A stretch of 56,325 nt of DNA, filler included, from Sphacelaria rigidula (Eukaryota): NCBI GenBank assembly GCA_964200075.2. It is 6 parts of 6 records of this genome, joined end to end, with 100 filler letters (N's around TTAATTAATTAA, not from the genome) between each part and the next. Parts side by side here need not be neighbours in the genome. Positions count along the whole stretch, not along the records: positions 47,023 to 56,325 come from CAXNAA020008800.1; 5 more parts are not named here. The stretch is one strand, 5' to 3'. The translations under genes were made by a program, and so were the position numbers. Positions 12,023-56,325 of the stretch are shown here, piece by piece (positions within the stretch are counted from its first letter, which is position 1; every line of letters starts with the position of its first letter). A model generated the notes under the pieces. The model was not told the DNA's origin and made no database searches. It saw only the letters and a program-made list of their open reading frames with translations.

Positions 12023-15000
12023 CTATTCGCTGTTGAGAAACGTTACTTCCATGTCCACAATATTGCGGTGCGTCTTGCACGCGGCGCACATTTTCTCGAT
12101 GAGCTTGTACCCCTCCGCCCCCCCGTGCGCACTCTTGAACTCCTCCAAATCATCACCCTTACTCGCCAACAAGGGGTAGGTACGACGGTAATCCCTGGTG
12201 CGCCGCGCAAATCTACGAACCCGCTCGAGTGTAAGAATACCGTCCGTGCTCAGTACCTTGAGAACGTTTTCTTTGAGATGCTTGGGGTCCTCGTCGTTGA
12301 TCTTTCGCCGGAAGTCTAGTTTACTTTTGCCCCAAGAGTACTCGACCCCGACCCCTGCCAACTCAGGATGTGCCCGCGGCTCTCTACCAAGTGCTGCAGT
12401 GCGGATTTTTCCGCTCTGTAGTCAGAGCAATTGCCTAGAACCGGGTAACAGTTTTTCCCCGTCTTGGGGTCGGCGCTACCGGTCATTCCTTCTTCCCACA
12501 GCCCCCTTTCCCACAACATCTGCCGAATGCCCTTTGGTTTCCCCTCGTATCCGATCGTGGGTTCATATACCCACCTATTCTTGCCCTTGCCTGTGCTTTT
12601 TTCCTTCCGGCCTCTTTTTCTGCTCCTGGGTTCGGCCTCAAGGTCGTAGAGCGGGGGAGGATCTCCAGCCTGAAAGGTGGCATGCTGAACATCGCCTGGC
12701 TTGAGCTTACAATCGCACTTCTTGCCATTCCACACCACCGTCGCAGGGTTAGGCCCTAGGCATGCAGCCGTCACCTTCGTATCGCGTATCCCCCCCCCCT
12801 TCTTGCCGCCCCATTTCACGTTCAAGTTGTCAACATGCAAACCGTCCTCCCTGTACTTGGCATGCCCGCTAGAGTGGTCCACCTCCATCACCAACTGCCA
12901 CGCCGGGTACAACACCTCGAAACAGTCCATGATGTCAATACACTGCTCGGCAAACATGTCGTAGTTCCAGTACCCGTCCTTGTTCTTACCGTACTCCAAA
13001 AACCTAGTCCCCGGGGTATCCTTCAGCGCCGGGTGACCATGGACAGAGCGAAAAGCATTTACTCGCGCTAGCTCCTCGCCGGTCATCCTAAAACCAAACC
13101 CCCGAATTTCATCCTGGAATGCCGAGACCATGATGCCTGAACCCTATGTATTTTTTCTGAGGCTACGCACACCTGCGACTACCCGCCCCTTCCCCTCCCG
13201 AAGGTACGCCTTGAAGATGCACTCGTCTTGCCCCATGTGCCATGCCGGCAGATGGCAAAAGCAGACGCCCTCATGTCCTGCACGGCATGAAGAGTCCGCC
13301 TCGGCCCTGAAGCGCACGCTGAAGTTTCCCCCATTTTCGGACTTCTTCCTCACGATGTCGAAAGCACCCCTGTCTGTAGAGGTTCCTTTTCCACCGGCCT
13401 CCCCCTCTCGTCCGAGTCTGTCCACGTGAAACTCGATGAAGTCCACCCCCTGGCGCACATACTTGTATACTTCGCAGGGCAAACCGTTGTGCTCGATTGT
13501 CTCGAGAGCCTCGGTGGGCACGTCGGCTAGGGGTATCTGCACCCACACCGGCTGCCGGAGGGAAAGGCGCCGTAGTTTCGCCAAATACACCAAGCGATCT
13601 GCGATCACTTCCGGCTTGTTGTGGCCGTCGGTGTAGTACGTTTGAGTGGCGCGGTCGAACACCCAGTCCATCTTCTGCAGCCACGAGTGCACCAGCCCTC
13701 GCGAAACGGGCTTGACGATCACGTAAACGTCCTTCATCTTGGCCTCGTCCATGCTTGTGTGTTCTATCGTGAGAAGCTTGTCGTTGATGAACGCCACCAC
13801 CTTCGAGACGGTAAGGCGTTTCTCCTTCTTCATGTGTTGCAGCAAGACGAACAAGAGGTCGTCCTCGCTCAAGATCCACTCCTTCAGCCCGGCGCCCCTT
13901 TCGTCCAGCTTGAAGTAGCCGTTGGCGTCGTGTTGGTTGAACCAGGCAAGAACCGTTTGGGCGCTGATGTTGCCGTGGCGGTTCGCGGCCTCGGCCGCGA
14001 TCATGGGCATGAAGCCTCTCAGGCGCAGCTCTGCCATGTTGTTCAACCCCGCCTCGAGTGCAGAGTTCACACCATCGCCATCGGGCACCAAGACTTCGGC
14101 GGCTTCCAAGGCAGCTCTCCCGATGCGCGCCTCCCCCCTGTCGCGATGCGCCAGGGCCTCGTAGATCTTCATCGTCGTCAAGCCCTGTTCGCCCGCACGC
14201 GCAATTTGCTTGGCGGTGCAGTCGCTGTAAGACGCCTCCCCTGCCGCGTGGTTGTTGATTGCGGCCTCGGCGAACGTCCTCGTGGTGTCCGCCGAGTTGG
14301 CGGCTGGTGAGCCGTCGTCCTGCGCTAGGGCGAAGGTCGCAATGTCGTACTCCTCCCACGCCGCGCGCTCCTTGCTTTCCGCCTCCTTCACGTCTCCTAG
14401 CAGTGCATCCTCGATCGCGGCGGTCACGTGGAGGTTAGTCTGGGCCTCATGTAGTTCCGCTTGCGCTTCCAGGTATCGCGCGCTCGCAGGGTCGTCCTCA
14501 GCTGCGCCCATAGAGATCGACGGCCCTGCAGCCTTGAGAACCGGTACCCACTTCGAACGAGCCTTGGCGAGGGTTGTTCTATCGGCGTCGGCATCCTGAC
14601 GAGCTGCTGTCCATTTCGCTTGCGCTTCGGAAGTGCGGTCCATCGCGATGGAATACGCCTTCGCGGCGGCCACGTGCCGAGGGTCGGACACACAGGGCTC
14701 CCTCGGCGCTTCGGTCGACGCGGGGGGCGGCTGCTGAATCTTCTCCAACAGGTCCACCTAACGACCGTGGGCGATCGCGGAGAAAATATCCGCCGCCGCC
14801 TTCTCCCGTTTTGCCGCCCGTAGCTGTAGCTCCTCTACCCTCCGCTCCAAGCCTCGCCGCCGGTACTCAATGGTCCGATCTTGGGGTGCTTTCTTTCGCC
14901 ACCTCGCCATCCCACGCCCCAACCCCAAGTTGCGCAGCGTGCTGCAGCGCAGACGCCAGTCCCTCTTCAAGTCGGCGCGGATTCCTCGCAGCGAAGCAGC

Positions 15001-16797: not shown

Positions 16798-18710
16798 CCC
16801 TTTTGGGACCGGACCCCAACCAACACAGGGTTGACCCTGTGTCAGTGGAATAACAAAAAACAAGTCTTCGAGCAACCTGCCCAATCACGGCGAGGCGAAA
16901 TTTATCGACCTGATCCGAACGACCAGCGCGGGGTTGTCGAGTGTGATGCCACTGCAAAGATCGTGTGGGGGCCCTATCCCTGGCCTAGATAAGCCTCCCC
17001 AGGTTTTTAAGTGCAGGGTGGTCGCAGCTTGTTTTTATGGCATTACCTGCACTTAGTATGGCGTTCCTAAGTTTTTCCGGAGTGTTTTTTGGGTCCCAAT
17101 TCTATACTGAAACGCAGTACTTTATACTAACACAGGGTGGACCGGAAAAACCGGGAAGAAGTGTACATGCTACAGTGTGGTCATTTTCACAAGGCACTAA
17201 ACCCAGGTGGACCGTGGAAAGATAAATGAGCTACCGTCATTCTGCGTATCCCTGTGCCGATGACTCACAGTGTACAGTTAACATGTATGTACGAGCTGGT
17301 TCAGATTGAACGCCCAAAATTCATTCCTCGAGATTTCCTCACGCCGTTTTTTCGAGTTAGACCACGAAAATTTGCACACATGTTTTTGAAGGCACTATCT
17401 AAAACTCGAAGACCGTTTTTTTGTTTTTTTTGGTGTCGAGATAGTCGCGATCTAACCCCTGCCCCGGTCGAGTAGGTTACCTGCGACCTTGGATAAAAAG
17501 CCACCAACAACAAGAAATGAAAAAAAAAACGGTCTTCGAGTTTTAGATAGTACCCTCAAGAACATGTGTGCAAATTTTTGTGGTCTAACTCGAATAAACG
17601 GCGTGAGGAAATGCCACAACGTGCGCTGAATTATAATAAACAAGTATGTAACGACTTGATTAATGCACCGAATCGCCCTTTTTGGGGGTTGGTTTCACGG
17701 TAAAAGACCCAGCCGAGTCATTTTTTTTAGTTGAGCAGCGAAAATTGGTACACATGTTCCTTGGGATACCACCTAATCCTGAGATGTAAAAAAATTGGAG
17801 TTGGGGCATTCTGTACCGGTTTCCTGTGGTCTTTATGCTGGGAGCCCCGGAAGCCGGTAGAGAACGGAGGAACTTTGAAATCTTGCCAGTAGCATAGTTT
17901 TTCCATTTTGAGCATCAATACCTACGGAACTGCCAAGTTTGAGGATGATCTGAGCCTTTTTCCCACAGATAAAAGGGAAATCGTCTCGAGGCTCCGTGGG
18001 TCTTTTGTTCGTGTCATGAGAAGATTTTAGACGACTCCAAAGCTCCACATCACCGAAACATTACGGTTTTGGGCAGAATTCGACCCCGTTAGAACCGTTT
18101 TCAAATCTGTTTCTCCCGTTAGATTCCCAAGCTGATGACGGTTACTACGATTTGAACCATGTGGAGATTCGATGGAAATTGGGCTTGGAACTCGTGTTTT
18201 CAATTTCGGAACAATTTCAAAGGCGCTGATTGGTCGAGACACGTTTCTGTCCATAGCGCCACCGCTTTAGCCTTGAACGAAAATCCGGCTATGTCACCCT
18301 TTTCGTCTGTTCATTGCGGTCAGTATGATACCACATTTGTGCATATTGGCGGGGTATTGCGTTCGTCATTAGCCGGGGAATAAATTTTGGGTATTCAATC
18401 TCAGCCAGCTTGTAGTAGGCGGGGATAAAGAAGCGGGAGATAGGCACTTGATATCGGTGGCTGAGAACTGCCTAGAACGTGCAAGGGAGTATGCAACGGT
18501 AGCTGCTGCTGCGGTCGGGGAGGCGTACTGCACTGTACTTGTACTGTACTACACTGTATGTATGCGCGCCGCAAAGCTGATATACCCTTCGAAGAGAATT
18601 TGCCGCATGCAACAAAGGGGGAAACGGCAGCCCACCCCGACCACAAAGGGCTGTGTGGCAAGGTGATGGGGACAAAAATACCATCCAAAGCCACAAGTGG
18701 CGGGCGGCCC
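16798..18710 (-). mobile_element. Non-autonomous piggyBac-like element, interrupted by a MITE and cut by the scaffold end
   Basis: TTGA|CCCTTTTGGGACCGGACCCC terminus; the body is the reverse complement of ~23540-24343. Confidence 0.8.
17292..18412. mobile_element. Non-autonomous relative (1.12 kb) of the 10986-16675 transposon
   Basis: TA|CGAGCTGGTTCAGATTGAACGCCCAAAATT ... AAATTTTGGGTATTCAATCTCAGCCAGCTTG|TA. The paralogous empty site at ~23838 has a single TA. Confidence 0.92.
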
Positions 18711-18810
18711 NNNNNNNNNNNNNNNNNNNNNNNNNNNNNNNNNNNNNNNNNNNNTTAATTAATTAANNNNNNNNNNNNNNNNNNNNNNNNNNNNNNNNNN
18801 NNNNNNNNNN

Positions 18811-28105: not shown

Positions 28106-28214
28106 AAAAAGTGANNNNNNNNNNNNNNNNNNNNNNNNNNNNNNNNNNNNNNNNNNNNTTAATTAATTAANNNNNNNNNNNNNNNNNNNNNNNNNNNNNN
28201 NNNNNNNNNNNNNN

Positions 28215-37268: not shown

Positions 37269-37875
37269 CTGGCAGTCCATCGTTAGACACAAGCGGTTTC
37301 GGACCGTACCCGCGGCGGATGGTACCGTTCGCAAACGACGAGGCATTGAGCCGTGTGTTGCGATGACGGAGGACGCGCGCGGTTGGGGATAAACGGGGGA
37401 GGTAATTGAGCAAATGATTGTCTTCTTGTTGGGGGGGGGGGGGGGGGGGGGGGGGGAAACCCCCAACCCCCCCCCCCCCCCCCCCCCCCCACTTAGTGCA
37501 AGAGAGTGGTGAGGGGGGNNNNNNNNNNNNNNNNNNNNNNNNNNNNNNNNNNNNNNNNNNNNTTAATTAATTAANNNNNNNNNNNNNNNNNNNNNNNNNN
37601 NNNNNNNNNNNNNNNNNNAGTAGAGGTGGTGCCCCCCGTGCCAAAGAAATGGCGATTTAATGTGTAAACCACCGGTGGGGGAAAAAAAGAGATTTCCCCC
37701 CCCCCCCCCCCCCCAAGCGTCATTGCTTGCTTTGGAGTGTGTTTTGCTATTAACCTACCCAGCCTTTGAAGATGATGCACCACAACCTCCACCTGTTATT
37801 GGCGTCTTTGGTTGAAATTTTAACTTCTCTTCATCTGTGAACCTCAATTTCTCCGTATTTCACTGAACTGTGCAG

Positions 37876-40922: not shown

Positions 40923-43900
40923 GAGAAGACATGAGTTGCCAGTGAAACAAACCTCGATATTTCTACCGCCGGGTTTCGCGTTCCGGTTGTTCTCGAATGT
41001 TCAGTCGAGCTGCTTTTGTCTTTCAGCATGAATGCACCCCCTGTAGTGACATGGGTTGGGGGCCAACAGCGAGTTTCGGAAACCTTCTTTCCGCACTTGA
41101 GGATTTTCGCACTTGGGGTTAGGGAGCAAGGAAGAAAAGCCTGTAACGACACGTTTTCGATCCCGAAGTAAAGTTCAAAACGGATCTTTCGTAATCAGAG
41201 TCCTGCTTGAGACCTTCGTGCTGAAGCATGAAGTCGCGCTTTAGAACTCAGGATGGCAACGAAGGACACGAAGCGCACCCACCGTCACCACCGTCACGGC
41301 CAGTTCGCAGTTCACGATCAACACACCCATTACAAGCAACGTGGGGCATCCATCGGGCATCCATCGCGGCTGCCATCCTTATCACAATAGACCGTTCGCG
41401 ACGTAGCAACGCTTGACACCGCCGACAAGCGATCTCCCTGCGCCACCATGCATGGAGTCTCGGGAAAAAATGTTGCTAGACCGGGTGGAGCCAACCTCGT
41501 CCAATTTGGATAAGTACGTTTCAGAAAATCCGAACGTTGAACTAGTATTTTGTCTCCCGTTGATGAGTTCATCCCCGGACAGGCTGCAGTAATCACCAAG
41601 GCTTTGATGGAGGGGTTGGCGCCGGAAACGATTGAGCAAGCCGTGCTTGTCAAGTTGCAGAACGAGGCAAATTGGAAGACCTACCCTACCTGGTAATGGA
41701 CACCGTCGTGGCCGAGGCCAAGGAGTGGCGGAAGATGGAGGTGTTCGGCCAGTCGTCCACCTCCACGCCGAGGGCTTTGCGCCACCACGGCTCGAAATCG
41801 GCCGGCCGCGCCACGACCGTCCCTTGCCACCGCTATGGCCAGGTTGGCCATTACGCGCGCGATTGCCCAACGTCTTCCGATGGGGAGTCTGAATAGTCTC
41901 ATGCCGTGCGCCATCAGCATCGTCAGCACAAGGGCAAATGATGAGGTACTCGTTGTGGCGGCGGCGGCCGATCCTCCGGCGGTGGAGGGTCGTAGTCGAG
42001 TTCTCAGTAGTAGCAACAGCAGTAGGGGCAGCAGCGTCAGCATGGGTCTGGTTCTAGATCCGGCGCCGCCGTAGGTGCTGCTGCTCGCCAACGGGCGTTG
42101 CAGGTGATACCGACTTGTACAGTGTCGAACACTGCGCCGCTACCGGTGGTGGCACCCGTGGCGACGCCGGCCGCAGCGCCAGGCGCAACGCCTGCTGATG
42201 CGCTGTTTGGTGTTTCGCCAATTTTTTTGTCTCCTGGCTGGGCGTCATACCCGCCGGCGATGCTGTTTGAACCTGCCGGGGCGTCTTCGCCTGCGCAGCC
42301 TGCGCAGCCGTGGCGTCACGTGGGATCAGCGGCGCATCGACTGGCGGCGGATGAAGTCTCGGTGGCATTTGTGTACAAGTACGTTTCTGCAGAGCTGTGG
42401 TTTCAAAATCAACCGGAGCGTGGAGCCATTGTGGTTCGGGCTGTGTTAGATTCTGGCGCCCATTTCACGAGTCATGTGAGTCTGTCGGTGTAGATTGTAG
42501 AGATGTTGGAGCGTCTTCTCCCGGGTGTGCTGCTGCGCATTCCGTTTCGCTCGGGGTGTGGCAGGCCGTCACCGCGTCGGGTCAGCATGTTTGCCTCACG
42601 GAGCGTACTGTTCCGCTGCAGCTGGCTTCCACGACGTCCTGGGGGCCGCCGCCGTTGCCTCTGATCTCGTTTGCGATCATGCCGGGGTCGGATGGCGTCA
42701 TCCTTCTGGGGTTGCCGACGCTTCAGGATCTCTGAGTCGACCCGTATGCGCGGTTGTGGGACTCCATGAAGACGCGGATGTCTCCGCCTGGTTCGCGCGT
42801 AGAGACGCCCGCCTTTTTGCGCAGTCGTCGCATGATCTCGTCGGTGTATGCTCTTCAGGAGGCTGGGGGGCAGATGGCCGAGGAGCGGGATAAGGCGGTG
42901 GAATGCTTGGTGGAGCGCGGCCCGGAGATGGTCATGGATCCGGCGAAAGAGGAGTTCGCTCGAAAGGTTGCGCTGGAGAAAAGCGTGACGGATGCTGTTG
43001 CGAAAGGATTGAGCGTCTCAAAAGCGAGGCGCCTGCGCGGCATCTTGCATCTTGCATCGCCGTGTCAACGCGTTTTGTCGTGCGCTGCGGGGTGATCCCC
43101 CTGTTCGAGGGGAGCCCATGCGTGTTCAGCTAAAACCTGGGGCGTCTGCGGTGAAGACGAAGCCGCGGTGGTACGATCCGGTGAAGTCAAGTTGGTTAGC
43201 GTCGTGCATGGTAGCTATTTTGGCGCCGGGGTTGGTGTTCCGGAACTTGCAGGCGGTGTGGTCCAGTCTGGCTATGGCGGTTCGGGAGAAGGACTCTTTT
43301 TGCCTGGTAAGCGACTACAAGACCGTAAATGAGCGGGTTGAAAAGTCGCGGGGTGTGATGCTCAACCAAAAGTCGGACATGCGTGATGTGTTGAGTGCTC
43401 GGTTTTTGGGCAAGTTGGACCTTCTCCAAGGTTTACTGGCAGATGACGTTGGAGGCGGAGGCGCAGGAGATTTTTACAATCACGACTCCGTTTGGATTGT
43501 TTACCCCGAAGCGAGTGCCGCAAGGTGTGCTGAATGCCACGACATATCTTGAAGGCATCATAACAGGACTTCTCGTCGGCTTAGAATACAAGATGTGGGT
43601 GGATGGTGTGTTTTTTTTTCGCGGGCACGGAGGGCGAACTTTTAGACACGCTTGATGCTGTCTTGGTTCGTTTAGAGGATGTTGGTCTGTTTGCGGCTGC
43701 GCACGAGTGTACCTTTTTTGCTTGTGAATCGTGTGGTGTGGGAACGTGTACTCACACGGGCGCATACCTCTTGACCTTGTCAGATTGCAAGGCTTGTCTG
43801 ACATGCGTGCCCGGAGACGGCCGCAGAATGCAATCAATTCTCTCAGACCGTGAATTGGGTGCGTACCTCGTTGCCGCGTATGGCAGAAGTCGTAGCTCCC

Positions 43901-46150
43901 TTGCGTTGTTCCCTCGAAGAACTCATGGCGGGTGCTGCGAGGCGGACGAAGCTTGTGGCAAAAAAACGCGCTACTCCGCCTGCATCGTGGATGGAGGGCA
44001 GGTTGCAGCCGTGAACAGCAGCGAAGGATCTGGTGGCTCATTCCGTGACGCTTTTTCCTCCTCGTCCTGATTGTCGGGTGTTGATGTTGCCGGATGCATC
44101 TGAGTGCCATTGGGGTAGTTTTGTCACGCAGGTGCCTGAAGTTGAAATGCAACGGCGCTTGCCGGTCGAGAATATGACGCATGAACCGCTGGCTTTTCTC
44201 AGTGGTAGTTTCAAGGGTTCACAGTTGCGTTGGGCCACAAGTGACAAGAAAGGTTTTGCTATCGTGAGCACTTCACGTCGTTTGGAGCATTTTTTATGGG
44301 ATGACGTGCACGTTTTCACGGATCACCGAACTCTCATGTATATTTTCAACCCGGAAGCGTGCGTTACGTCTGTGTCGAAGGGGTTGGCACAACGTTTGGA
44401 GCGTTGGAAAGGTGTTACTGGCCAGTATCGTTACTCGATTTGTCATATTTCTGGTGACCGTAACGCGTGGGGTGACTTGCTCTCGCGTTGGGTGAATATT
44501 CCGGCTCTGCCTGTGCGCGCTGTGGCCGTGTATGGTCCGTGTGAAGCTGATGACTCGATGCCGTCCAAATCCGTTGTCCGCCAAGCGCAACGGAAAGACC
44601 TTGGGGCCGAAGATGCGGGTGTGCAATCTTTCGAGTCGGACGCCGGTACTGCTATCTTGGACAATGAAGGTATGTTTCGTGTGCATGTGCGTGGCCGAAA
44701 CGTTTTGTGGATTCCGAGTTGCGAGAAGCAGTTGCAGATAAGTCTGATGATTTGCGCGCACATGCGCGATGCGGGGCATCGTGGTATGGCTGCGAAGCTC
44801 GTGCGTTTGCAAAAGTTTGGTGTCTGGCAGGGGATAGAAGCACATGTGCGCGAATTTGTCCGCCAGTGTCTTCACTGTGCTGACTCGAGGGCGGGCGATG
44901 TTGCTCCCCGCCCGCTTTGTGAAGCGGTCCATGGGACCATGCCGAATATAGTCACTGTGCTGACTCGAGGGCGGGCGATGTTGCTCCTCGCCCGCTTTGT
45001 GAAGCGGTCCATGGGACCATGCCGAATAAAGTCGTTCATCTTGACTTCTGGTACGTGGGCGAAAATAGCCCGTTAGCTTCCCAAGGTTTGTCGGAGGATG
45101 CTGGGTCTCGATACATTTTGATGTATGATTTGAGCAACTTCGTGTCTCTGAAACCGGTAGCAGTGTGTACTGCTGAATCGACTGCTACATCTTTGCTCAA
45201 CTGATGCAAAACTCTGAGGGTGCCACGTTTGTGCGTGAGTGATACCGCTACGCATTTCAAGAATGCGATCTTGGCCCGATTGCAATAGGCTTTGAACGTT
45301 GATCACCAGTTTACGGTGGCGCAGTCCCCGTGGTCTAACGGCACGTGCTGATGCATGTCCAAGGAAGTAGTTCGTGCTCTTCGCTCTATTCTTTTCGAGC
45401 AGCGTGAAGCGGTTCCCGAGTGGGTGCACGTGTTGCCTGCGGTGCAAGGGGCGCTCAGTACAGCGTATCGTCGTCGTTACGATAGTACACTGTACCGCGT
45501 GATGTTCGGTCGTGCTCCTCGGACGTCCTTCTCGGTGTTAGCGTCTTCGTCGGTGGAGGCATGGAATCGTGATGTCTTGGATGATGGTCCAATTAAGCGT
45601 GCATTGCAAGGAATCTTGGATTTGCAAGAACTTTTCCACGTTCAAGTGCAGGATTGTGTTGCCGCTGATTGTACCCGTACACGTGAGGGGTCCTCGTCGG
45701 GGCTGGAACTGCCGAGTTAGACAACTATATCTTGTATGCACGCGCGCATCATCTGGGCGTTACGCCCAAGTTGATGGCGACGTGGACTGGTCCGTGGAGA
45801 GTGGTTGGTGCTCACCATCCGCACGTATTTGAGATCCGGAACATTGTTTCGGGTCGTGGTCAGACCGCCCATGTAGCTCGTTTGCGTTTTTATGCAGACT
45901 CGCAGCTTAATGTTTCGGCTGCCGTTAAGGGCGTGTTCCAGCACGCTTTCAGTCAGGGGCAATTCCAGATGGCTGGTATTGTCCGGGTGGTAGAAGCAGA
46001 CGATCGTTCGTTGATCGCGTTGGTCGACTGGGTTGGTTTCGAAGTTGAGGAGCGTACGTAGGAGCCTTTCAAGTATATGTAAGGCTACTCCGGGATTTCT
46101 CGCGAAGCTTTGGGGGTGCTGTAACGAAATTACGCGGTTATGCTGAGTTG
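40923..46150 (+). mobile_element. Decayed Ty3/Gypsy LTR retrotransposon with chromodomain
   Basis: Order: gag zinc-knuckle remnant CHRYGQVGHYARDC (~41825), protease VLDSGA (~42445), RT (KLDLL, FTITTPFGLF, VPQG; ~43050-43900), RNase H (DASECHWG, FTDHRTL), integrase (H..GH..C..C, SD.ATHF, PWSNG) and chromodomain LVDWVGFEVEERT*EP. Possible LTR edges GTGACA|TGG (41051) and GGGGGTGC|TGTAAC (46120). Many stops and frameshifts. Confidence 0.92.
44873..45028 (+). repeat. 80-bp tandem duplication frameshifting the integrase
   Basis: CACTGTGCTGACTCGAGGGCGGGCGATG...CATGCCGAATA at 44873 and again at 44953. Confidence 0.9.
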
Positions 46151-46922: not shown

Positions 46923-47022
46923 NNNNNNNNNNNNNNNNNNNNNNNNNNNNNNNNNNNNNNNNNNNNTTAATTAATTAANNNNNNNNNNNNNNNNNNNNNN
47001 NNNNNNNNNNNNNNNNNNNNNN

Positions 47023-47788
47023 ATTTGTATACCTCCACCAGGGTTTCGAGTTTTATGTTTGGCGTGTTTCAACAGCCCACAGTCCCGTAGGTGTCTCGTG
47101 TGTTGTGGCGTGATGTAGTGATGTAGCGTCACTGCCGCAGAGAGGTCATCACCACCCCACTAACACCAGTGCCGGTTCTTTCGAGCACATAAGTAAGCGA
47201 CCATGCCCCCCTCGTTCTTGCTAGAGTTGAATCCTTCATCGAAGGATCGCAGAACTACCCGCCAGACAGCGTCAGTCCGCATCACTACTCTCTCAACGTT
47301 TTTGCAATGCTTTTACTAGGAGACCGACGAACAAGGCGTATCGTTTTTTTGTCTCGTATGCGCGAAGCGGGCTCCATGGCGCATCGGCTGCGGCATGTGA
47401 TTTCATGATTTGTATACCTCCACCAGGGTTTCGAGTTTTATGTTTGGCGTGTTTCAACAGCCCACAGTCCCGTAGGTGTCTCGTGTGTTGTGGCGTGATG
47501 TAGTGATGTAGCGTCACTGCCGCAGAGAGGTCATTACCACCCCACTAACACCAGTGCCGGTTCTTTCGAGCACATAAGTAAGCGACCATGCCCCCCTCGT
47601 TCTTGCTAAAGTTGAGTCCTTCATCGAAGGATCGCAGAACTACCCGCCAGACAGCGACAGTCCGCATCACATGTCTACTCTCTCAACGTTTTTGCAAGCT
47701 TTTACTAGGAGACCGACGAACAAGGCGTATCGTTTTTTGTCTCGTATGCGCGAAGCGGGCTCCATGGCGCATCGGCTGCGGCATGTGG
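47023..47788. repeat. Tandem duplication, ~385-bp unit, two copies
   Basis: ATTTGTATACCTCCACCAGGG starts at 47023 and 47408; the units are nearly identical. Confidence 0.9.
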
Positions 47789-49229
47789 TTGCTTCGTGTG
47801 TTGTTGGTTGTTGTCGACAGGATCACTCACAAAGGCGCAGCCAGCACGCCGGAACATCCAAGAAAAACGCGGCGTGACCCCATTATGACGGTCTGCCGGA
47901 CAAAACGCAAACATCCATTTGCAAAAATCTGTGCTTGCCGACCCCCGCCAGTTTGCACAAAATTCTGTGAGACTCGGGCCCCGAATCTTGGCCACGGATT
48001 TTTTCACTCAAAATGTCGATAAATCTGTACCCATGAGATGGGTGTCACACGAATTTTGAAGATCCGGGGCCGAAGATCTGTTGCCATAGCATCGGGCCTA
48101 ATGTCAATAATCGGTACCTAGATATCAGGAAATTGCCGTTTACTCACGAGAAGAAAGAATCTGCTCGTCCCGACTAACAGCTTTTCAACATGCCCTATTC
48201 TTCCTCCGTACCAAATTTCAAAGTCTAACTCGCAATATTGAGGTAAGGCGGCAGAAGACGGGGCAATTTAGAAACCGGGCTGGGCAGGCGAAAATCAGAG
48301 GCGAACAACCAACAACCCTCATACAACTCATGCAAAAAAAAGCCGAAAAAAATCGCACAGTACCCTGTCCGGTGTACAAAAATTATGTGCTTCTCATCTG
48401 CTACCGAGCCACCCGCCCGCCACCTGGTGAAACAACCCGAGAATATGGTACTGCTATCCTAAGAATGGAGAGATTATTTGCTCTGGTTCATCGCGCGCCC
48501 TGCTGTACGAAGCGGCACGTCCCCACTCCTCGTCCAGGCGAGTGACACTGGAACTTACCCGTAGGCCCCCCTTTGTTGCACTTGAGGAGCGTGGCGGCTA
48601 CTAATCGATCGCTGTTAGAAGTCCGTTGGCGTCCATTCGTGCAACACCTCAGTCTAGGCGAGGCTCGTTTCATGACCGTCGACGACGGCTTGATGAATAC
48701 TACGTCCATTAGAGAGTTTCGGAAAATATTTTTTCCCATCTTCGAGTCAGAGTGGAAGGAAGAATAGCCGGTAACGGTGCACATTCCACTCTGATTTGTT
48801 TCTTTAGAGCGATTTTATCAGAGTGCCGTTTGCACCTCTTGACCCTGAAAACCGTTGTTCCTCTTCAGAGTTCATAGCGGAATGAAAAAGAACCACGCCC
48901 ACCTTCACCACCATGGTCACGTCCAGCCCAAAGCCAATACACCCTGACAAGCAAAGTGGCACATTTATCATCCGTCACAACTGCAATGCTCATCACAATG
49001 GGCCAATGACTAAGTAGAAGAGCTTGGCATCGCAATCAGAAGACCTCCCTGACGCCGCCATGGTCTCAGCATTCGCTTGGTTGTGTTGCGTGAAAATTTA
49101 AATGCTCGACAGGTGCAATGTTGCCTCAGGTGCAGTTCCCCACTCTTGCCAGCTTCCGCTGGAAGAAGACGGTGGGAACGATTCGTAGTCTAGACTTCGA
49201 AAAACGACTTCGACCTCCGTCGGACCCCC

Positions 49230-50150
49230 GAAAAACGGTGAAAAACTCAAGAAGTAAAAAAAACATCGTCCGTAGAAAGTCGATTAATACACAGCATAGT
49301 TATGCAAAGTTTCAGGATCTAACTCCTAATGACGGCGTGAAAGTTTGCGCGTTTGTGGAGGACGTGGGCTTGAAACGTGCAACTCCCAACTACTTGGTTT
49401 TAGTATGGAAACTTCTTTTGGGGTGAATTTGACGTCAAGGCAAGAAAAACTGTGTGAGGTTTTCGAGTTTCTCCACCAAACTTTGTACATGAATTCCTTG
49501 GACTCTCCCGGGACGCATCATTTCATTATTTTTCTTCTATGGCATTCTGTATCGACTTCCGGGAGTCTTCATGCTGAGACCCCCAGAAGCCGGTAGAGAA
49601 CGGAGAAAACATGATATATTGTCAAGAATACAATTTTTCCATTTTGATCATCAATACCTACGGAACTGCCGAGTTTGAGGGCGATCTGAGCTTTCCTACA
49701 ACATATATAGGGGACACCGTCACGAGACTCCCTGGGTCTTTCGTGCGTATCATCAGTGAAAATTAGACGACGCCAACACCCGACATCACCGAAACATCAA
49801 GGCTACGGGTATAATTCGACCCCCGTAGAAACCGTTTTGAAAATATATTTTTCTCGTTAGATTCCCGTGTCGATGGCGGTTACTACGATTTGAAGCATGT
49901 AGAGATTGGGTGAAAATTGGGCTTGGTATTCGTAATTTCGATTTCGGAACAGTTTGAAGGGCGCTGATTGGCTGAGACACATTTTCGTCCATAGCGCCAC
50001 CGCTACGGCCTTAAACAAAGCTTCGGCTATGTCACCCTCTTCGTTTCTTTATTGCGGTCAGTATGATACCATATATGCGACTATTGGGTGCGTATTGCGG
50101 AAGGCATTTGTTGATGACACAATTTTGGGTGATCACCGTGAACCAGCCTG
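49230..50150. mobile_element. Left-truncated member of the TA-flanked TIR family
   Basis: Right end AATTTTGGGTGATCACCGTGAACCAGCCTG|TA; 49570-50100 is collinear with 17835-18362. The left boundary is approximate. Confidence 0.8.
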
Positions 50151-53100
50151 TAGTTCACCACGGTTTACCACTGTTGTAGGGTTCTGTATTGCACTTTCGT
50201 TACTGCAGTCTGTATCCCACGCTGCAGAGCACTACAGCACTACAATGTCCTGTTGTGCACCCTGGTGGATTGAGGTACAGCAGGTGCAGTGAAGAAGCGT
50301 AGTGTACGGTGCGTACAGTGCCGCAGTGTACGGTAAAGTCAGTGTTGTGCTGGCCTACAGATAGCGACAGATGTTAAAAAACTCTTATTTGGAGCGAGGC
50401 CCGGGTTCTTATTTCCTCTCCGATTGCTGCAGAAATGCTCAAATCCAAATTCTTATCGTTCGAAGAGGTGCGAAACGCCAAATGCCTGATTTTGAATTTC
50501 TTATTTTGCACAGGCATCCAATACGGCATTTCTTTTCCTTGAGCGCTTGTCAAGAATCATGTTTGGCACATTGCATCCATCACGCATACTGCGTTCCACC
50601 AGATTTTCATTATATGACGAAGCTCTCTAGGACTGTAGGGGTGAATTTCATGTTGACCACCGCCGACGACTACAAAACTACTGTAGCACTGTTGTAGTAC
50701 TGTAGCCAGAAGAGCCACCCAGTCGACATGGTCTATATTACACACGTTGGGCGTTAATACTCTCCCCCTGCTACTGACTGCCGGTTTTTTCGGGCCTGTT
50801 TCTGGATCTCCGCGCTGGCTGTTCTGCAGATTCTTACCCGTCGACCCTTTTGCAACTCCCCAGTTTCTAATTCTTATTTTCCCCTTTGGGTTCAGCACAG
50901 ATGCTTACCCGTAAATTCTTATTAAAACAAAAACGAGGCTGAGATTCTTAACTATGCAATTCTTAACATCTGACGCTATCCGTGTGCACTTTCGAACTGG
51001 ACGCTGGTCGATCGTATATCTGTCGGGGCAACCTGCGGCCCATCACTGCGACAAAAAAAGTCACGTCAAGCCACGTCACACCAGCTTCCGCTATGAACTT
51101 TTTAACGTCCACTCTGAAGTTTCGAAGCTTCCACTCTGCTGCACTCTGACTCTATGAAAAAAAAAAACATATTCCGAAACTCTCTGTGTATCACCACGCT
51201 GCACATCCCGGTCGGGAGTAACTGTTGCCATGCCAAAATGAAGAGAAAAAAAGTGGTTCTCGGCATCTGATTCGCGGGTGGCGAGGAGGTAGCAGCCCCT
51301 CTCATATCCTGAATCCCTCAAGTTTATCTTCGGTGACGAACGGAAATAATCCGAAGCAAACCAATAATCACAGTCGTGTGCATCCTGCGCTCCGTTGTGA
51401 TGTGCGCTGCTCGATCAGTACTGTATGCCTGTATTTGCGTCCTACATCCACTTCTTCCTCGCCTGCCCCCCGTGGTCCCGCAGTCCAGCCTGCAACGCGC
51501 CAGCACGTCAGCGCTTTTTCGAATTGGGAGCATGAGCAGCACGTGAGGCGCGCAGGAAAAGTCATTATCCGATACTGCCCGCTACTGCAATGTGATACGA
51601 GTATGATACATACATACTAATTAATTTATTTAACTTAATTCAAGACTGTAAGAGGATGGATGTTGGGGTGGATTATTAATTTTTAGGGAAAAGGAAACAC
51701 AAAATGGATAAGATATGAAATTTTCTCCAGTACATGGAAACACACTGTGGGGGTGGGAAAGTGCGTGCATTTTACGCGCCTGAGGGCGGAAATGTGCGAA
51801 TTATGCGAATCGAATAGTAAGCATGCGAGGGCGGGGCGTACCGCTGGGACGCTCGTGCCTTTAGAAATGGTGTTCATGGAGAGAGTAATGGACTCACAAC
51901 AAAAGTGTTTTGTCGCAAATTTGAACTGCATGTATCCATTTGTCGCTATTTCGGCCCTGGTACACGGCGGTGTCTATGGCGCCTGCACCGACCCCCCCCG
52001 TTATCGTTGATGGTGGCAACGACGACGTTGTTCCCATTCATGTACGTACGGGTGTTGCTGTGCCTGCTGCTGTGCCTGTCGCTGGTGCTATGTCTGCACC
52101 CGATACTGCAGACACGGTAGCGGTTACCACAGCAGGCGCAGGAATAGATGTAACCGCTCCCAAACCAACAACGGGAATGATGGGCACATTGTTGACCCTT
52201 TTGATCACCCGGGCGGGTCATGACATGAATAAGCATTATTTTCACTTGAATAATGAACCGAAGACCCAGATGACACACCCTAGCGATCGAATGGCTGAAC
52301 CCTATGCCTCGTGGCAGTGAGGCGGTCGCCTACTTGTTCGTCACTAGAAACAACTTCATTTCATGTGACTTCGATCGCGGCCATACTGCTTGTACTTTGC
52401 AGCAAGAATCAATCGGCAGAGAGAATATATCGGCGTGTCCTTTTTCTCCAAGGTTGGTGCGACAACACCGCGGGCTCGTGTCAACTTTTGCGTTCCACGT
52501 TGCGTTCCGTTTGGCAGGGCACCACAATGTTACGGCTTTTTTATGGCACATGTTCAGACCATACTACGTAAACGTTTCCGGTTCAATATTGCAGCCAATC
52601 GTCAATGAACATATATTGGCGCACAGTGTGCAAGCAAGCATGGCCGCTCCCCGTTCTGCGGCCGGTTGGTACGTTCGTAAACCACGGTACTGCGTGATCG
52701 GTAGATTGATCGATTGATCGACTGTCGTACATGAAGTGATCATTATCCACAAGAGGGACCCAACTGTGGTCGCTATCCACAAGACAGACGTGCCCATGGT
52801 GAACAAAATGGAACTGCTCGTCAATGAAAAAAGAAAAGCGAAAGTAGAAATAGAAACAAGATAAAAACAACCGGAGTAAACTGAAGAGCGATTGTCGTCC
52901 TACATGTCGTTCAACTTAGCTGTATATTGACACCGCGTATCGGCATTTCGCTCTCTCGTCACATGATCCCGAGAGAGCACGGCTGGAAGGGGGTACCGCC
53001 CAGAGCAAGCAAGCAGGGTTTGCCTTTACTATTGTAGCATAACATATTAACTCGTTGACAGCCAACTTCATCTCAAGAAAGTATCGCCAGGGTTTTGCCA

Positions 53101-53960
53101 TGGGGGAGGGGGGGGACCTTTTCCCCTCAGAAAGTGTGCGATTTTCTAAAGGAAGCCGATCAGTATGTTATCTCCCTCCACTGCAGACAAACAGTCAACT
53201 GTACTGTACGCTGTTTCCAAGGGCACCTTAAAATCAAGTATGGGTGTCAAAAGTTCCACATATGCAAAGAGTCCGTCGTCTCTAGTCATGCGACTCGAGC
53301 CACACGGGTCATGATGCAAAAATTACGACGAGTCTACGTCCAGCCATGCTTGCCATGTCGGGAAAATGAGGCCGAATTTGAATCGACTCATGCTGCAAAT
53401 AAATCGCTTGCGCGAGCGTAAGACTACGCGCGGCACAGGGAGAGGTCAGGCGGATTTCCTGCTACTGCTGGAGCCTGCTGTCGTAGTCCGATTGCCGACG
53501 GGCACTCGGAAACTCGGCATATTCTCGATATTTTATTTTAAGCCTCTGAGTGACCCCCGGGCTTGGTTACTCAGTCTTTTGGGCTCTCGATCCTGTGTCA
53601 TTCCGTCTATCTAGGCTATGGGGAATGTAACACGGACACGCTAGAGTACCTCAGGCCCTCCCGCGGATACCGTTGGTGGACCAGCATTCGTCTGTCACTG
53701 GTTCGTGTCTCCCTTGTTTTGCGCGTGTGTACAGTTAATGAATCATTCAGGTTCTTGAATCTGTCTCACCGAAGTTTAAGTCATGTCGGACCAAGCCCAC
53801 GACTGACTCACCGAGTGCGCGTTTCACGATGAAGACTCGTGCGTCGTCGGGCGTTTGCATAGTTTGGTATTTCCGCTCCGCCAGGGCGGAGAGAGAGGGG
53901 GAGGGTGGGCGACCGTGACTCCAATCGGTATCTTCTTTCGATCGCACACTGCTCACGCAG

Positions 53961-54050
53961 GTGGCTGGGGTATTCACCAACTTGTTCGGCGGTTTGGCTG
54001 GGAACAAGTACGGACTGCGATGCACTCTTCTCTCGTCACTCTTTCTACAG
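53961..54050 (+). CDS. arsJ: ArsJ-like organoarsenical efflux MFS transporter, exon a
   Basis: CGCAG|GTG...CAG|GTCAGT; encodes VAGVFTNLFGGLAGNKYGLRCTLLSSLFLQ. Confidence 0.88.
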
Positions 54051-54533
54051 GTCAGTCCTTCTTTCCGAGATGGAGTCTTCATTCCTCGTTTACTCTATGC
54101 ATGTAACAGTGCTGCGTATATACCGATAGGTCGGGCTTGCAACCACACACGTGTGGAAGGTGTATGTTAACAGCGCCACATTCTGATCGATTGACGTCGA
54201 TTAACTCTAGCTGGTGAATGGCTCTCCAAACGCCCCCCCCCTCCCCCCCTCCCTCCCCCTTATGGTCTCTTATGGTGTCATGACTATGGCATGCATGGCC
54301 ATGAGTACACCCTCCCCCTCATGGAGGGCCGACGCCAAAAACGACCGGTAACATGCGCTCACCCGTAGACTATCTGTGTCACACCTGTACGGCCACGCCA
54401 TAACACACGGAGAGGTGAGGAATACCTCATACAAGCAAACTTTGTGACCACGCTGAGGCCACCGCCGCTCCAAGGACCGGAATTCGCACACAAAACACCG
54501 ATCGAACCCCTTACTGCCGTTTGTTTTGCGCAG

Positions 54534-54662
54534 ATAGCGTGCCTGGTGGGGTTGACGCAACTGGAAAGGGCAACGGGAAACCTGGACAATGCCGCCGGCA
54601 CGACCCGGTTGGAGGCAACGATCTACATCACCGCGTGGCAAGCGTTGGCCGGTGTCGCGAAG
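54534..54662 (+). CDS. arsJ: ArsJ-like MFS transporter, exon b
   Basis: GCGCAG|ATA...AAG|GTGATT; encodes IACLVGLTQLERATGNLDNAAGTTRLEATIYITAWQALAGVAK. Confidence 0.88.
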
Positions 54663-54850
54663 GTGATTATAGACGCAACAAACCGCGGGGTCACGAACAC
54701 GCTCCTCCGACCTCAAGCCAATCCGGGGCTTGCATCGGCCATTCGGTCGCGTGACTAGATCATGATATCGTCTCCATTCTCTCTAACCGTCGTTTTTCTA
54801 CCCGCGTCCTGTGACACGCGCGGGCTCCCCCCCCACGATAACGTATGCAG

Positions 54851-54966
54851 GACCTCATGAAGATAACGGGGAAGAGCACCCCCAAGCTGGTCACGAAGAA
54901 GGGGGCAGAGGGACGACTGTTCCAGCTCGTGGCCTGGCTGACGGGCATGAAGAACGCACTGAAGGG
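54851..54966 (+). CDS. arsJ: ArsJ-like MFS transporter, exon c
   Basis: TGCAG|GAC...AAG GG|GTACGT; encodes DLMKITGKSTPKLVTKKGAEGRLFQLVAWLTGMKNALKG. Absent from the ORF track. Confidence 0.92.
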
Positions 54967-55951
54967 GTACGTCCTGTCCGAATAATCGAATAGTGGATAT
55001 CTGATTGCGCTCTTGGGTCTCTGCTGTGTAGTATCCCATTTTTGTGAAGCGGCTTCCCCGCTGGATACGTTTTCCCGACTACTTTTGAACGGTGGAATAA
55101 TTGCCTCACATTAGCTGATACGCCGCGAACCCAGTCGGGATCACGAGATAGGAATACTGAAGGTAAATGACTGAGAAAAGTCGTTGTGTCGTATCGATTT
55201 TCTTGTCATCTTTCACGACGGATGGAACACAGTTACAGTGAAATAAAAAGGTGGCGTACGGACGTCCAAAATTCAGTTTTTTGATTGCTGAAGGTTGACA
55301 TATCGAGCAGTTTTTTCGCTGTGGAATCATGTGTCCAAAAGCACATGCCGTCGCAGCTGCAGTAACTATTCGCGTTAGACAGCGTGTATGTACAACCTTA
55401 TTGTGACAAAGCAGGACGAGTGCATTTACACATCCTATCATTTTTCTACAGCTAGAAAACGAACACAATGACCCCTTGCGGCGAATATATCGTTTTCGGT
55501 GCACCTGGTGTCACGTTGGAATTTGGTCAACGAAGAGTAAATACCACCGTCCTTTTCCACGTGTATGGGTAGACCGCACGCGCGTTTTGCTTACATAGTA
55601 CTGTAAGCGTTTTTATTTTGTAACCGCCGCTCTTCTGAAATTAGCCAGGCATTGTGGAGGGCGTTTTCAAAGACGTGCCGCCGACAGAACCGAGTGACAG
55701 AAAAAGGGGTTGAAATCGAAACTCTCAGACGGTTCACAGCGTCAATTCCGAAAAATAAAACTGATGAGAACACATTGATTTGTAACAAATATCAGAATTC
55801 TCACGGTGACAACCCGCCAATACCCCCACAGAAGAAATACAGAGGAAAATATATGACCTCTCAGGCATCAAGAACGGCTGAATTTAGAAGTCGCAGTATG
55901 TGCCTTCACCCCGAACCCTCCATTTACTTTGTCTTATCCCGAATGTTGCAG

Positions 55952-56068
55952 ACTTGGCACCTTCCTGGGGTCGTTGTTGGTGGATGTGATTGGCTACGAG
56001 TGGAGCCTCGTGGTTCTCGTCGTGATTTGCGTCATTTTCGTCCCTGTTGGGATGTTTGGCATGGACAG
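55952..56068 (+). CDS. arsJ: ArsJ-like MFS transporter, exon d
   Basis: TTGCAG|A CTT...GAC AG|GTGAGC; phase 2 matches exon c; encodes LGTFLGSLLVDVIGYEWSLVVLVVICVIFVPVGMFGMD. Confidence 0.88.
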
Positions 56069-56104
56069 GTGAGCGGTCATTTCACAGTGTCCCGTGTACT
56101 GCGT

Positions 56105-56240
56105 ACGTCAACGAAAAGGCGAAGAAAAACTCCTGTGTTCGCCTTACTGCTGTGTGACCCCGGCTGCTACGCCCAGATATACCAAAACGTGTAGACTGGC
56201 GTCCAAAATAGATGGGATGACAAGACACAACACTCACACG
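56105..56240 (+). mobile_element. 3' tail fragment of the tRNA-derived SINE family
   Basis: CCTGTGT...GTGACCCCGGCTG...GCCCAGATATACC...GTGTAGAC...ACAACACTCACAC, similar to 24450-24560. Confidence 0.7.
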
Positions 56241-56325
56241 GAACTCGAGAGTGCAGTAAAGGGATACCATACGAGCTGGGCCAGCCTAGAGGCGGATTTG
56301 AAGTTTGCAGGCCCATGCTCTTTTA

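What the first reader, a model, noticed from the sequence alone, without database searches (positions are those of the whole stretch)
53961..56068. Spliced eukaryotic homologue of the bacterial arsenic exporter ArsJ
Seen: four exons with canonical GT-AG sites and consistent phases (0,0,2) join into a stop-free ~150-aa hydrophobic peptide containing GVFTNLFGG, QALAGVAKDLMK..GKS..KLV, G.LF..VA.LTGMKNALKGLGTFLG. Known: these match the signature of the ArsJ MFS family (QALSGIAKDLNKMSAKS, LTGSKNALKG.GFFLG), which exports 1-arseno-3-phosphoglycerate made by GAPDH; ArsJ-like genes have also been described in green algae. Inference: an intron-bearing nuclear gene rather than contamination, and a candidate arsenate-detoxification route in a probable brown alga, a group known for arsenic accumulation. 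The N-terminal exon(s) (TDGALRM motif) were not found in the 6.9 kb upstream.
Basis: partly seen in the sequence, partly recalled or inferred. Interest (0 to 1): 0.8.

Follow-up and report, generated by a model that had tools for sequence, protein, structure and literature searches.

The report
Partial brown-algal ArsJ-like transporter gene
This is a real, intron-containing middle piece of a brown-alga gene for an ArsJ-type membrane transporter, a family already tied to arsenate tolerance in green algae, so it is a sound but fairly ordinary find.

Summary
Four GT-AG exons (53961-54050, 54534-54662, 54851-54966, 55952-56068; phases 0,0,2) join into a stop-free 150-aa peptide. It is letter for letter a public partial gene model, "unnamed protein product, partial [Sphacelaria rigidula]", on a 9303-nt contig.

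The 152-aa model scores 116 bits (E 1.7e-33) on NCBIfam NF033734 ArsJ, profile positions 47-179 of 392. Full-length brown-algal orthologues score 371-384 bits over the whole profile, just under the 400-bit equivalog cut-off.

The window is six ~9.3-kb contigs joined by N spacers. The gene therefore sits on a 9303-nt contig, 47023-56325. Its missing 5' and 3' exons are best explained by a fragmented assembly that breaks in repeats, not by a pseudogene.

In a tree the fragment is sister to the other brown algae, inside a stramenopile clade and a eukaryote group set apart from the sampled bacteria. That fits vertical inheritance, not contamination.

ArsJ-like genes in eukaryotes are already published. 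Green algae have them, with an arsenate-sensitive Chlamydomonas mutant (PMC7826186), and so do Cyanidiales (PMC9812998).

Export of 1-arseno-3-phosphoglycerate is inferred from homology only. No GAPDH or PGK neighbour is visible. New member of a known kind; modest interest.

The parts
46923..47022 (.). Artificial spacer (N44 - TTAATTAATTAA - N44) between two concatenated contigs. Everything to its left is unrelated to this gene's locus.
   Evidence: The same spacer recurs every ~9404 bases: 9306, 18711, 28115, 37519, 46923.
47023..56325 (+). The 9303-nt contig that actually carries the gene fragment.
   Evidence: N runs.
47023..51140 (.). Repeat-rich upstream DNA. It has no ArsJ-like exon and no Pfam-detectable ORF.
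   Evidence: many short contigs, summed word depth 10^3-10^5 in DNA run X1, and many joints and loose ends..
51141..53960 (.). Unique upstream DNA, either intron or intergenic. No N-terminal exon was detectable.
   Evidence: one 3168-letter X1 contig, 0 differences, word depth 70.6..
53961..54050 (+). Exon 1 of the fragment (30 aa). ArsJ profile positions 48-76. Carries GVFTNLFGG and an MFS loop 2-3 type motif.
   Evidence: E 2.1e-4; E 5.3e-14.
54051..54533 (+). Intron 1 (483 nt, GT..AG). Contains a C-rich low-complexity or repeated stretch around 54232-54312.
54534..54662 (+). Exon 2 (43 aa). A hydrophobic segment, then a stramenopile-type loop insertion, then the conserved QALAGVAK.
   Evidence: (E 1.1e-15). 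(insertion relative to bacteria, green algae, fungi and hemichordates). No single-exon NCBIfam hit.
54663..54850 (+). Intron 2 (188 nt, GT..AG).
   Evidence: A 151-letter contig of run X8 stops matching exactly at this intron's acceptor (record 24).
54851..54966 (+). Exon 3 (38 aa plus 2 nt). The most conserved block, DLMK..GKS..KLV ... LTGMKNALKG. ArsJ profile positions 108-145.
   Evidence: E 4.1e-8; E 5.5e-23.
54967..55951 (+). Intron 3 (985 nt, GT..AG).
55952..56068 (+). Exon 4 (117 nt). Two hydrophobic segments. ArsJ profile positions 148-178. Ends in phase 2 at the same ...GMD|R boundary where several brown-algal models have an exon border.
   Evidence: (E 0.057), (E 7.9e-13).
56069..56325 (+). 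Start of intron 4. The contig ends in a high-copy repeat from about 56270, so the remaining ~55% of the coding sequence lies off the contig.
   Evidence: summed depth 1.9e5 in the last bin and many loose ends at 56269/56270; no further exon.

Best explanation
The four exons are the middle part of the single-copy nuclear orthologue, in a brown alga, of the ArsJ family of major-facilitator transporters. The alga is Sphacelaria rigidula, judged by an identical public protein. The exons cover about residues 47-179 of a ~390-residue core, roughly the end of TM2 through TM6.

The gene looks truncated only because it lies on a 9.3-kb contig of a fragmented assembly. That contig starts and ends in repeats.

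By homology, the full protein most likely sits in a membrane and exports 1-arseno-3-phosphoglycerate. That is the unstable product GAPDH makes when arsenate replaces phosphate, and exporting it removes arsenate taken up through phosphate transporters.

Shown here: exon structure, family assignment, orthology with brown-algal and other stramenopile proteins, and separation from the sampled bacterial ArsJ. Inferred: substrate, direction of transport, membrane location, a GAPDH partner, and any link to arsenic handling in brown seaweeds.
For: **Structure.** All sites are GT-AG and there is no stop in 150 codons. The same junctions appear in public model P0003, an exact match when translated from 53958-54050 + E2 + E3 + 55952-56069.

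**Family.**
- NF033734 ArsJ is the only NCBIfam hit for 3 of 4 exons, at collinear positions.
- P0003 scores 116.4 bits, E 1.7e-33, on profile positions 47-179.
- Five full-length relatives score 371-384 bits over positions 5-392, E 1e-111 to 1e-114. The next family scores 22 bits or less.
- P0003 is 45% identical over 110 residues to a bacterial protein named ArsJ, P0100.
- 28 columns within the fragment are invariant across 9 sequences from stramenopiles, a green alga, a chytrid, a hemichordate and bacteria.

**Descent.** The fragment is sister to 6 brown-algal rows (SH-aLRT 97*). That group lies inside Ochrophyta (98*), then with labyrinthulomycetes (100*). The eukaryotes are separated from the 10 sampled bacterial rows by a branch of length 1.62 (100*).

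**Truncation by assembly.**
- Spacers show the window is made of concatenated contigs.
- Two long contigs of DNA run X1 cover 51141-56218 with 0 and 3 differences, at equal word depth of about 71.
- Both contig ends are covered by many short high-depth pieces with joints and loose ends.

**Possible transcript (weak).** In run X8, whose kind is only guessed to be RNA, a 151-letter contig lies with 98 letters on 54849-54946 and stops matching at the exon-3 acceptor. The depth of 0.43 in bin 54487-54797 equals its other 53 letters at depth 2.5, which is what an E2-E3 spliced molecule would give. The joint itself was not among the rows printed.

**Function precedent.** In Chlamydomonas an insertion mutant of the ArsJ-like gene is arsenate-sensitive, and the bacterial GAPDH-ArsJ mechanism is summarised in the same paper (PMC7826186, passages read).
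Against: - No 5' exon (about 47 conserved residues plus a variable N-terminus) turns up in the 6.9 kb upstream or anywhere else in the window. No 3' exons turn up either.
- No other Sphacelaria-named fragment appears among the 120 listed of 824 short homologues. So a complete gene has not been demonstrated.
- The full-length orthologues fall just below NCBI's 400-bit equivalog cut-off.
- No GAPDH or PGK exon was found. 0 of 107 ORFs of 50 aa or more on the contig hit any Pfam family at E <= 0.01. Only 6.9 kb on one side could be examined.
- Nothing here tests substrate or arsenate response.
- The family is also present in chytrids, Glomeromycota and hemichordates. That breadth would also fit a housekeeping substrate.
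Confidence: 0.65

Rival explanations
1. It is the same gene and the same family, but in brown algae and other eukaryotes the protein carries a normal metabolite across a membrane, for example a phosphorylated three-carbon acid or another small anion. Arsenate protection would then be absent or only a side effect.
For: - The family is spread over very different eukaryotes: stramenopiles, green algae, chytrids, Glomeromycota, hemichordates.
- The eukaryote group is separated from the sampled bacterial ArsJ by a long branch of 1.62.
- The orthologues fall under the equivalog cut-off.
- The stramenopile proteins have a loop insertion of their own.
- No GAPDH or PGK neighbour was seen.
Against: - The one eukaryotic member tested genetically, in Chlamydomonas, gives an arsenate-sensitive mutant (PMC7826186).
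- The blocks conserved between bacteria and eukaryotes are intact in the fragment. 28 columns are invariant.
- Absence of a neighbour within 6.9 kb says little in a genome with long introns and spacers.
Confidence: 0.25
2. The four exons are a dead relic, either a truncated duplicate or the remains of a gene broken by repeat insertions. No functional ArsJ-like gene would then exist at this locus.
For: - The conserved N-terminal exon is missing from the 6.9 kb upstream, and 4.1 kb of that is repeat-like.
- No second Sphacelaria fragment appears among the 120 listed short homologues.
- Any transcript evidence is a single low-depth contig in a run whose kind is only guessed.
Against: - 150 codons are open and all six internal splice sites plus the outer acceptor and donor are canonical.
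- The fragment is 75-82% identical to orthologues and keeps all family-invariant columns.
- Its end branch of 0.32 is ordinary against a median of 0.28.
- The contig simply ends 257 nt after exon 4, inside a repeat.
- Other brown algae sequenced to short contigs give similarly partial models, such as P0004 on 8431 nt and P0126 on 7959 nt.
Confidence: 0.08
3. It is bacterial contamination or a very recent bacterial transfer, misread as spliced.
For: The family is mainly bacterial. 6,144 homologues were found at E <= 1e-10, many from metagenomes.
Against: - Unspliced, the reading frames end in stops within a few codons of each boundary.
- The best relatives are brown-algal nuclear gene products at 75-88% identity, against 45% or less for bacteria.
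- The tree mirrors stramenopile relationships.
Confidence: 0.01

Closest known systems
Brown-algal orthologues annotated without function, e.g. Ectocarpus siliculosus 'putative membrane transporter (ISS)' (P0013), and Scytosiphon, Ascophyllum and Pylaiella 'unnamed protein product'
   Same: Same gene. The fragment is 75-88% identical to them, has the same loop insertion in exon 2 and the same exon border after ...GMD. The Sphacelaria rigidula partial model P0003 is identical to the joined exons.
   Different: Only about 150 of 430-610 residues are present here. None of these records is named ArsJ by its source.
Green-algal ARSJ of the ArsJ-GAPDH3-PGK3/4 neighbourhood (Chlamydomonas Cre07.g354150; Foflonker & Blaby-Haas 2020, PMC7826186, passages read)
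   Same: A eukaryotic, intron-bearing member of the same family. It groups with the stramenopile proteins, apart from the sampled bacteria. A close relative from Chlamydomonas incerta (P0092) is 39% identical to the fragment in the nine-sequence alignment.
   Different: In green algae the gene sits beside GAPDH3 and a PGK-like gene, and a mutant is arsenate-sensitive. Here no neighbour is visible and nothing functional is known.
Bacterial ArsJ (NCBIfam NF033734; Pseudomonas aeruginosa GAPDH-ArsJ system, Chen et al. 2016, seen only as cited in PMC7826186)
   Same: The full-length orthologues match the profile collinearly (positions 5-392) and the conserved blocks are shared.
   Different: - 42-46% identity.
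- Scores of 371-384 bits are below the 400-bit equivalog cut-off.
- Introns, long N- and C-terminal extensions and a loop insertion.
- No operon partner.
arsJ of Cyanidiales red algae (PMC9812998, one passage read)
   Same: A eukaryotic arsJ that stands alone, without the GAPDH-PGK cluster. The paper says it is monophyletic with Viridiplantae and other eukaryotes.
   Different: A different lineage. I did not have its sequences in the tree.

Membership tests
ArsJ family (NCBIfam NF033734, organoarsenical efflux MFS transporter) | A specific, collinear match to the ArsJ profile with no competing family | tested here: met
   The exons hit profile positions 48-76, 108-145 and 148-178. P0003 scores 116.4 bits, E 1.7e-33, on positions 47-179. 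The orthologues cover positions 5-392, and the next family scores 22 bits or less.
ArsJ family (NCBIfam NF033734, organoarsenical efflux MFS transporter) | A score at or above NCBI's curated equivalog cut-off of 400 bits, meaning the same function is presumed | tested here: not met
   5 of 5 full-length brown-algal or Chrysoparadoxa proteins score 371.3-383.6 bits. The 152-aa fragment cannot reach the cut-off and scores 116.4. I therefore file it as ArsJ-like (the eukaryotic branch), not as an equivalog.
ArsJ family (NCBIfam NF033734, organoarsenical efflux MFS transporter) | Genetic linkage with a GAPDH gene (the bacterial gapdh-arsJ pair; the green-algal ArsJ-GAPDH3-PGK neighbourhood) | tested here: inconclusive
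   0 of 107 ORFs of 50 aa or more on the 9.3-kb contig hit any Pfam family at E <= 0.01. Only 6.9 kb upstream and 0.26 kb downstream exist, and no whole genome is held.
ArsJ family (NCBIfam NF033734, organoarsenical efflux MFS transporter) | Confers arsenate resistance together with GAPDH by exporting 1-arseno-3-phosphoglycerate | not testable with these tools
   This needs expression, knock-out and transport assays. The precedent is known only from PMC7826186.
Major facilitator superfamily (Pfam PF07690 MFS_1) | An MFS_1 domain and about 12 hydrophobic segments in the full protein | tested here: met
   PF07690 is precomputed for 14 of the 16 proteins listed, P0003 among them, and for all 120 rows. 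Single exons stay below Pfam thresholds; exon 4 gives MFS_1 at E 0.16. A crude hydropathy scan shows segments matching those of bacterial ArsJ. No membrane-topology predictor was run.
Eukaryotic ArsJ-like clade (as in PMC7826186 and PMC9812998) | Groups with green-algal and other eukaryotic sequences, apart from bacterial ArsJ | tested here: met
   27 eukaryotic rows lie on one side of a 100* branch against 10 bacterial rows. One caveat: I picked 37 rows out of about 136 available, and 8 of the 'bacterial' rows are unnamed and were called bacterial by my guess.

The most novel reading that the evidence does not exclude
The GAPDH/ArsJ arsenate-extrusion route is not a green-algal speciality. 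It would be an old, vertically inherited eukaryotic pathway present throughout stramenopiles (brown algae, Chrysoparadoxa, Tribonema, labyrinthulomycetes), where it works without gene clustering. In brown seaweeds it would be a so far unnamed arm of arsenic handling: it exports arsenate that enters through phosphate uptake, alongside the better-known conversion to arsenosugars. That could bear on why some brown seaweeds hold much inorganic arsenic. My searches found no paper naming ArsJ in brown algae. In some searches I saw listings only, and one search printed only the top 15 of 85. The brown-algal genome preprint has 0 occurrences of 'arsen' in its main text.
Probability: 0.4. Interest if true: 0.5.

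Novelty: new member of a known kind. Interest (0 to 1): 0.3.

Why it matters
Brown seaweeds accumulate arsenic, and some are eaten, so a named candidate exporter for arsenate-derived 1-arseno-3-phosphoglycerate gives a concrete gene to test in Ectocarpus or kelps.

The data gathered here also show that the ArsJ-like family is conserved across stramenopiles and other eukaryotes, in a pattern that follows organismal relationships. That widens the published green- and red-algal picture.

For this window itself the result is mostly a correct annotation. It is a partial gene on a short contig, already present as an unnamed protein in public records.

Tried and rejected
- **Whole-genome search for the missing exons and for GAPDH/PGK.** No genome is held for this window. 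One search failed on the accession format.
- **N-terminal and C-terminal exons elsewhere in the window.** tblastn with 6 proteins and a profile search of 2,796 ORFs found only the four exons.
  - The best other tblastn hit, P0018 residues 247-298 on 18492-18653 (E 0.004, 31% identity), lies on a different contig piece. It shares a motif with a second weak hit at 23669-23604 and was not found by the profile. I take it as a repeat or chance match.
  - The weak N-terminal hit at 41665-41802 (E 1.4-7.3) is also on another contig and I reject it.
- **Other annotated pieces of the gene in the same species.** Only P0003 is named Sphacelaria among the 120 listed of 824 short homologues. Fragments under about 100 aa could sit below the listed part.
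- **RNA evidence.** No RNA holder is listed. Runs X8-X10 are only guessed to be RNA, and most of the gene has no cover in them. That is not evidence on expression.
- **Extending the contig.** The Logan contigs of DNA run X1 do not extend it. They break at the same repeats.
- **Pfam on single exons.** Nothing reached threshold.
- **Solved structures.** 0 sequence matches at E <= 1 for orthologue P0011, so no structure-based argument was attempted.
- **Not run.** No structure prediction, complex prediction or atlas search was run, because the family assignment was already unambiguous.
- **Earlier notes of this scan.** There are none for this genome.
- **Supplements.** Supplementary figures and tables of PMC7826186 and PMC9812998 (the arsJ trees and phylogenetic profiles) could not be seen. 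They may already include stramenopile sequences.
Full report
**1. What the window is**

The 56,325-base window is not one stretch of genome. It holds N runs at 9306-9405, 18711-18810, 28115-28214, 37519-37618 and 46923-47022. The one I read, at 46923-47022, is N44 - TTAATTAATTAA - N44, a stop-in-all-frames spacer, and the other four have the same coordinate layout.

So six contigs of about 9.3 kb each have been joined end to end. The finding lies in the last one, 47023-56325 (9303 nt). The other 47 kb are no context for this gene.

**2. The observation**

Reading the sequence and translating it confirms four exons:
- E1 53961-54050
- E2 54534-54662
- E3 54851-54966
- E4 55952-56068

Each is preceded by AG and followed by GT. 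The introns are 483, 188 and 985 nt. Phases are 0, 0, 2, and the gene leaves E4 in phase 2. The joined 452 nt give 150 codons without a stop. Unspliced, each frame runs into stops shortly after the boundaries.

**3. Is it more than chance, and what family is it?**

Taken singly, 3 of the 4 exons hit one and the same NCBIfam model, NF033734 (organoarsenical efflux MFS transporter ArsJ), at collinear profile positions:

| Exon | E-value | Profile positions |
|---|---|---|
| E1 | 2.1e-4 | 48-76 |
| E2 | no hit | - |
| E3 | 4.1e-8 | 108-145 |
| E4 | 0.057 | 148-178 |

Pfam gave nothing above threshold for single exons.

A search with exon 3, extended by a few in-frame intron codons to reach the 40-aa minimum, returned 16 proteins among 19 candidates. 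Ten carry organism names: nine brown-algal and one from Chrysoparadoxa.

The top hit, P0003, is 'unnamed protein product, partial [Sphacelaria rigidula]', 152 aa, on a contig of 9303 nt. It is exactly the translation of 53958-54050 + E2 + E3 + 55952-56069.

P0003 scores 116.4 bits (E 1.7e-33) on NF033734 positions 47-179 of 392. Five full-length relatives (Ascophyllum, Scytosiphon, two EukProt entries, Chrysoparadoxa) score 371.3-383.6 bits over positions 5-392. No other family exceeds 22 bits. All five fall just below NCBI's 400-bit equivalog cut-off.

A profile built from 13 of these proteins, searched against all 2,796 ORFs of the window, found the four exons (E 5.5e-23 to 7.9e-13) and nothing else. 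The next best E was 2.4.

Against a bacterial protein named ArsJ (P0100, Sneathiella) the fragment is 45% identical over 110 residues. In a nine-sequence alignment across stramenopiles, a green alga, a chytrid, a hemichordate and two bacteria, 28 columns inside the fragment are invariant.

Exon 2 fails the single-exon test because it carries a 9-12-residue loop insertion. That insertion is shared by the brown algae, Chrysoparadoxa and a labyrinthulomycete, and is absent from the other six sequences.

**4. Why the gene is incomplete**

The conserved N-terminal block of the orthologues and everything after ...GMD|R are absent from the window.

Laying Logan contigs of DNA run X1 on the contig shows two long contigs, of 3168 and 1950 letters with 0 and 3 differences. 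They cover 51141-56218 at the same word depth of about 71. In contrast, 47023-51140, part of intron 1 and the last ~55 bases are covered by many short pieces, with summed depths of 10^3-10^5 and many joints and loose ends.

I read this, as an inference, as unique DNA flanked by repeats at which the assembly broke. Exon 4 ends only 257 nt before the contig end.

Similar partial models exist for other brown algae assembled into short contigs: P0004 on 8431 nt and P0126 on 7959 nt. Among the 120 listed of 824 short homologues, no second Sphacelaria piece appears. The remainder of the gene is therefore not recovered, and a relic gene cannot be formally excluded. The open frame, the canonical sites, the conserved invariant columns and an ordinary branch length (0.32 against a median of 0.28) argue against a relic.

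**5. Transcript evidence**

No run on record as RNA holds the stretch.

In run X8, whose kind is only guessed to be RNA, one 151-letter contig at depth 2.5 matches 54849-54946 with 98 letters and stops matching exactly at the exon-3 acceptor. The X8 depth of 0.43 in bin 54487-54797 equals the remaining 53 letters at depth 2.5. That is what a contig spliced from exon 2 to exon 3 would give.

The joint was not among the 15 rows printed, with 30 more not shown. This is a hint, not proof.

**6. Descent**

I built a tree of 37 rows chosen from the proteins fetched. I kept all rows with organism names that I judged informative, plus 8 unnamed rows that I guessed to be bacterial. The other rows were left out.

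The tree places the fragment as sister to six brown-algal rows (97*). That group lies within Ochrophyta with Chrysoparadoxa and Tribonema (98*), then with labyrinthulomycetes (100*). All 27 eukaryotic rows lie on one side of a long 100* branch against the 10 bacterial rows.

The order inside stramenopiles follows accepted relationships (my own knowledge). That fits vertical inheritance and rules out contamination. Bacterial sampling was narrow, so eukaryote monophyly is not rigorously tested.

**7. Mechanism**

In bacteria, GAPDH arsenylates glyceraldehyde-3-phosphate to 1-arseno-3-phosphoglycerate, and ArsJ extrudes it. I saw this as summarised in PMC7826186 (passages read). The original paper, Chen et al. 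2016, I saw only as a citation.

In green algae, ArsJ-like, GAPDH3 and PGK-like genes are neighbours, and Chlamydomonas arsJ and pgk3 insertion mutants are arsenate-sensitive (PMC7826186). Cyanidiales have a stand-alone arsJ said to group with other eukaryotes (PMC9812998, one passage).

By homology, the brown-algal protein most likely does the same job. Nothing here tests that.

On the contig, 0 of 107 ORFs of 50 aa or more hit any Pfam family at E <= 0.01. No GAPDH or PGK neighbour is visible, but only 6.9 kb on one side exists.

The breadth of the family (chytrids, Glomeromycota and hemichordates as well), the long branch to bacteria and the sub-cut-off scores leave room for a different physiological substrate.

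**8. Novelty**

Eukaryotic ArsJ is in print, with genetics.

I found no paper that names ArsJ in brown algae. The searches were:
- 'arsj' + 'algae': 17 papers, 15 listed
- 'arsj' + 'brown': 85 papers, 15 listed, mostly human arylsulfatase J
- 'arsj' + 'eukaryot': 54 papers, 20 listed
- a looser search

The brown-algal genome preprint has 0 occurrences of 'arsen' in its main text.

So this is a new, partial member of a known kind. It is correct and useful as annotation, and of modest interest.

Noticed in passing
window 9306-9405, 18711-18810, 28115-28214, 37519-37618, 46923-47022 (also N10 at 4393-4402): The window is six ~9.3-kb contigs concatenated with N44-TTAATTAATTAA-N44 spacers. Features must not be linked across these points. 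A 10-N gap also lies inside the first piece.
   Followed up: yes
window 44015-45073 (+): A 353-aa open frame with RT-RNase H and integrase zinc-binding domains (Pfam E 7.8e-13 and 6e-7). It is a Ty3/gypsy-type retrotransposon pol fragment, in the GC-rich, strongly skewed part of contig piece 5.
   Followed up: partly
window 13147-14757 (-), with 12319-13143 (-): A 537-aa and an adjoining 275-aa open frame in a GC-rich (0.57-0.58), skewed region of contig piece 2. Neither has a Pfam match at E <= 0.001. Not identified.
   Followed up: partly
window 47023-51140, about 54176-54486, 56270-56325: Stretches covered in DNA run X1 by many short contigs at very high summed depth, with many joints and loose ends. 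They look like high-copy repeats. Runs X8-X10 also cover them. No protein domain was found in them.
   Followed up: partly
proteins P0055, P0090, P0125 (hemichordates) in the tree: Three hemichordate ArsJ-like proteins form a 100* group nested among green-algal sequences (91 support, next to the Chlorophyceae). This could be a transfer from a green alga, or an artefact of sampling or contamination.
   Followed up: no
proteins P0013, P0016, P0017, P0008, P0004 (alignment): Five brown-algal gene models lack the same 39-residue segment directly after ...GMD. That is the exon border where the window's exon 4 ends. This is probably a skipped exon in those annotations.
   Followed up: no
protein P0045: A 672-aa record named rRNA biogenesis protein RRP5 combines S1-type domains with the ArsJ-like MFS domain. 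It is probably a merged gene model.
   Followed up: no
window 54564-54620 (exon 2) and alignment A2: A loop insertion of about 9-12 residues between two hydrophobic segments. It is shared by brown algae, Chrysoparadoxa and a labyrinthulomycete, and is absent from the green-algal, fungal, hemichordate and bacterial sequences.
   Followed up: partly
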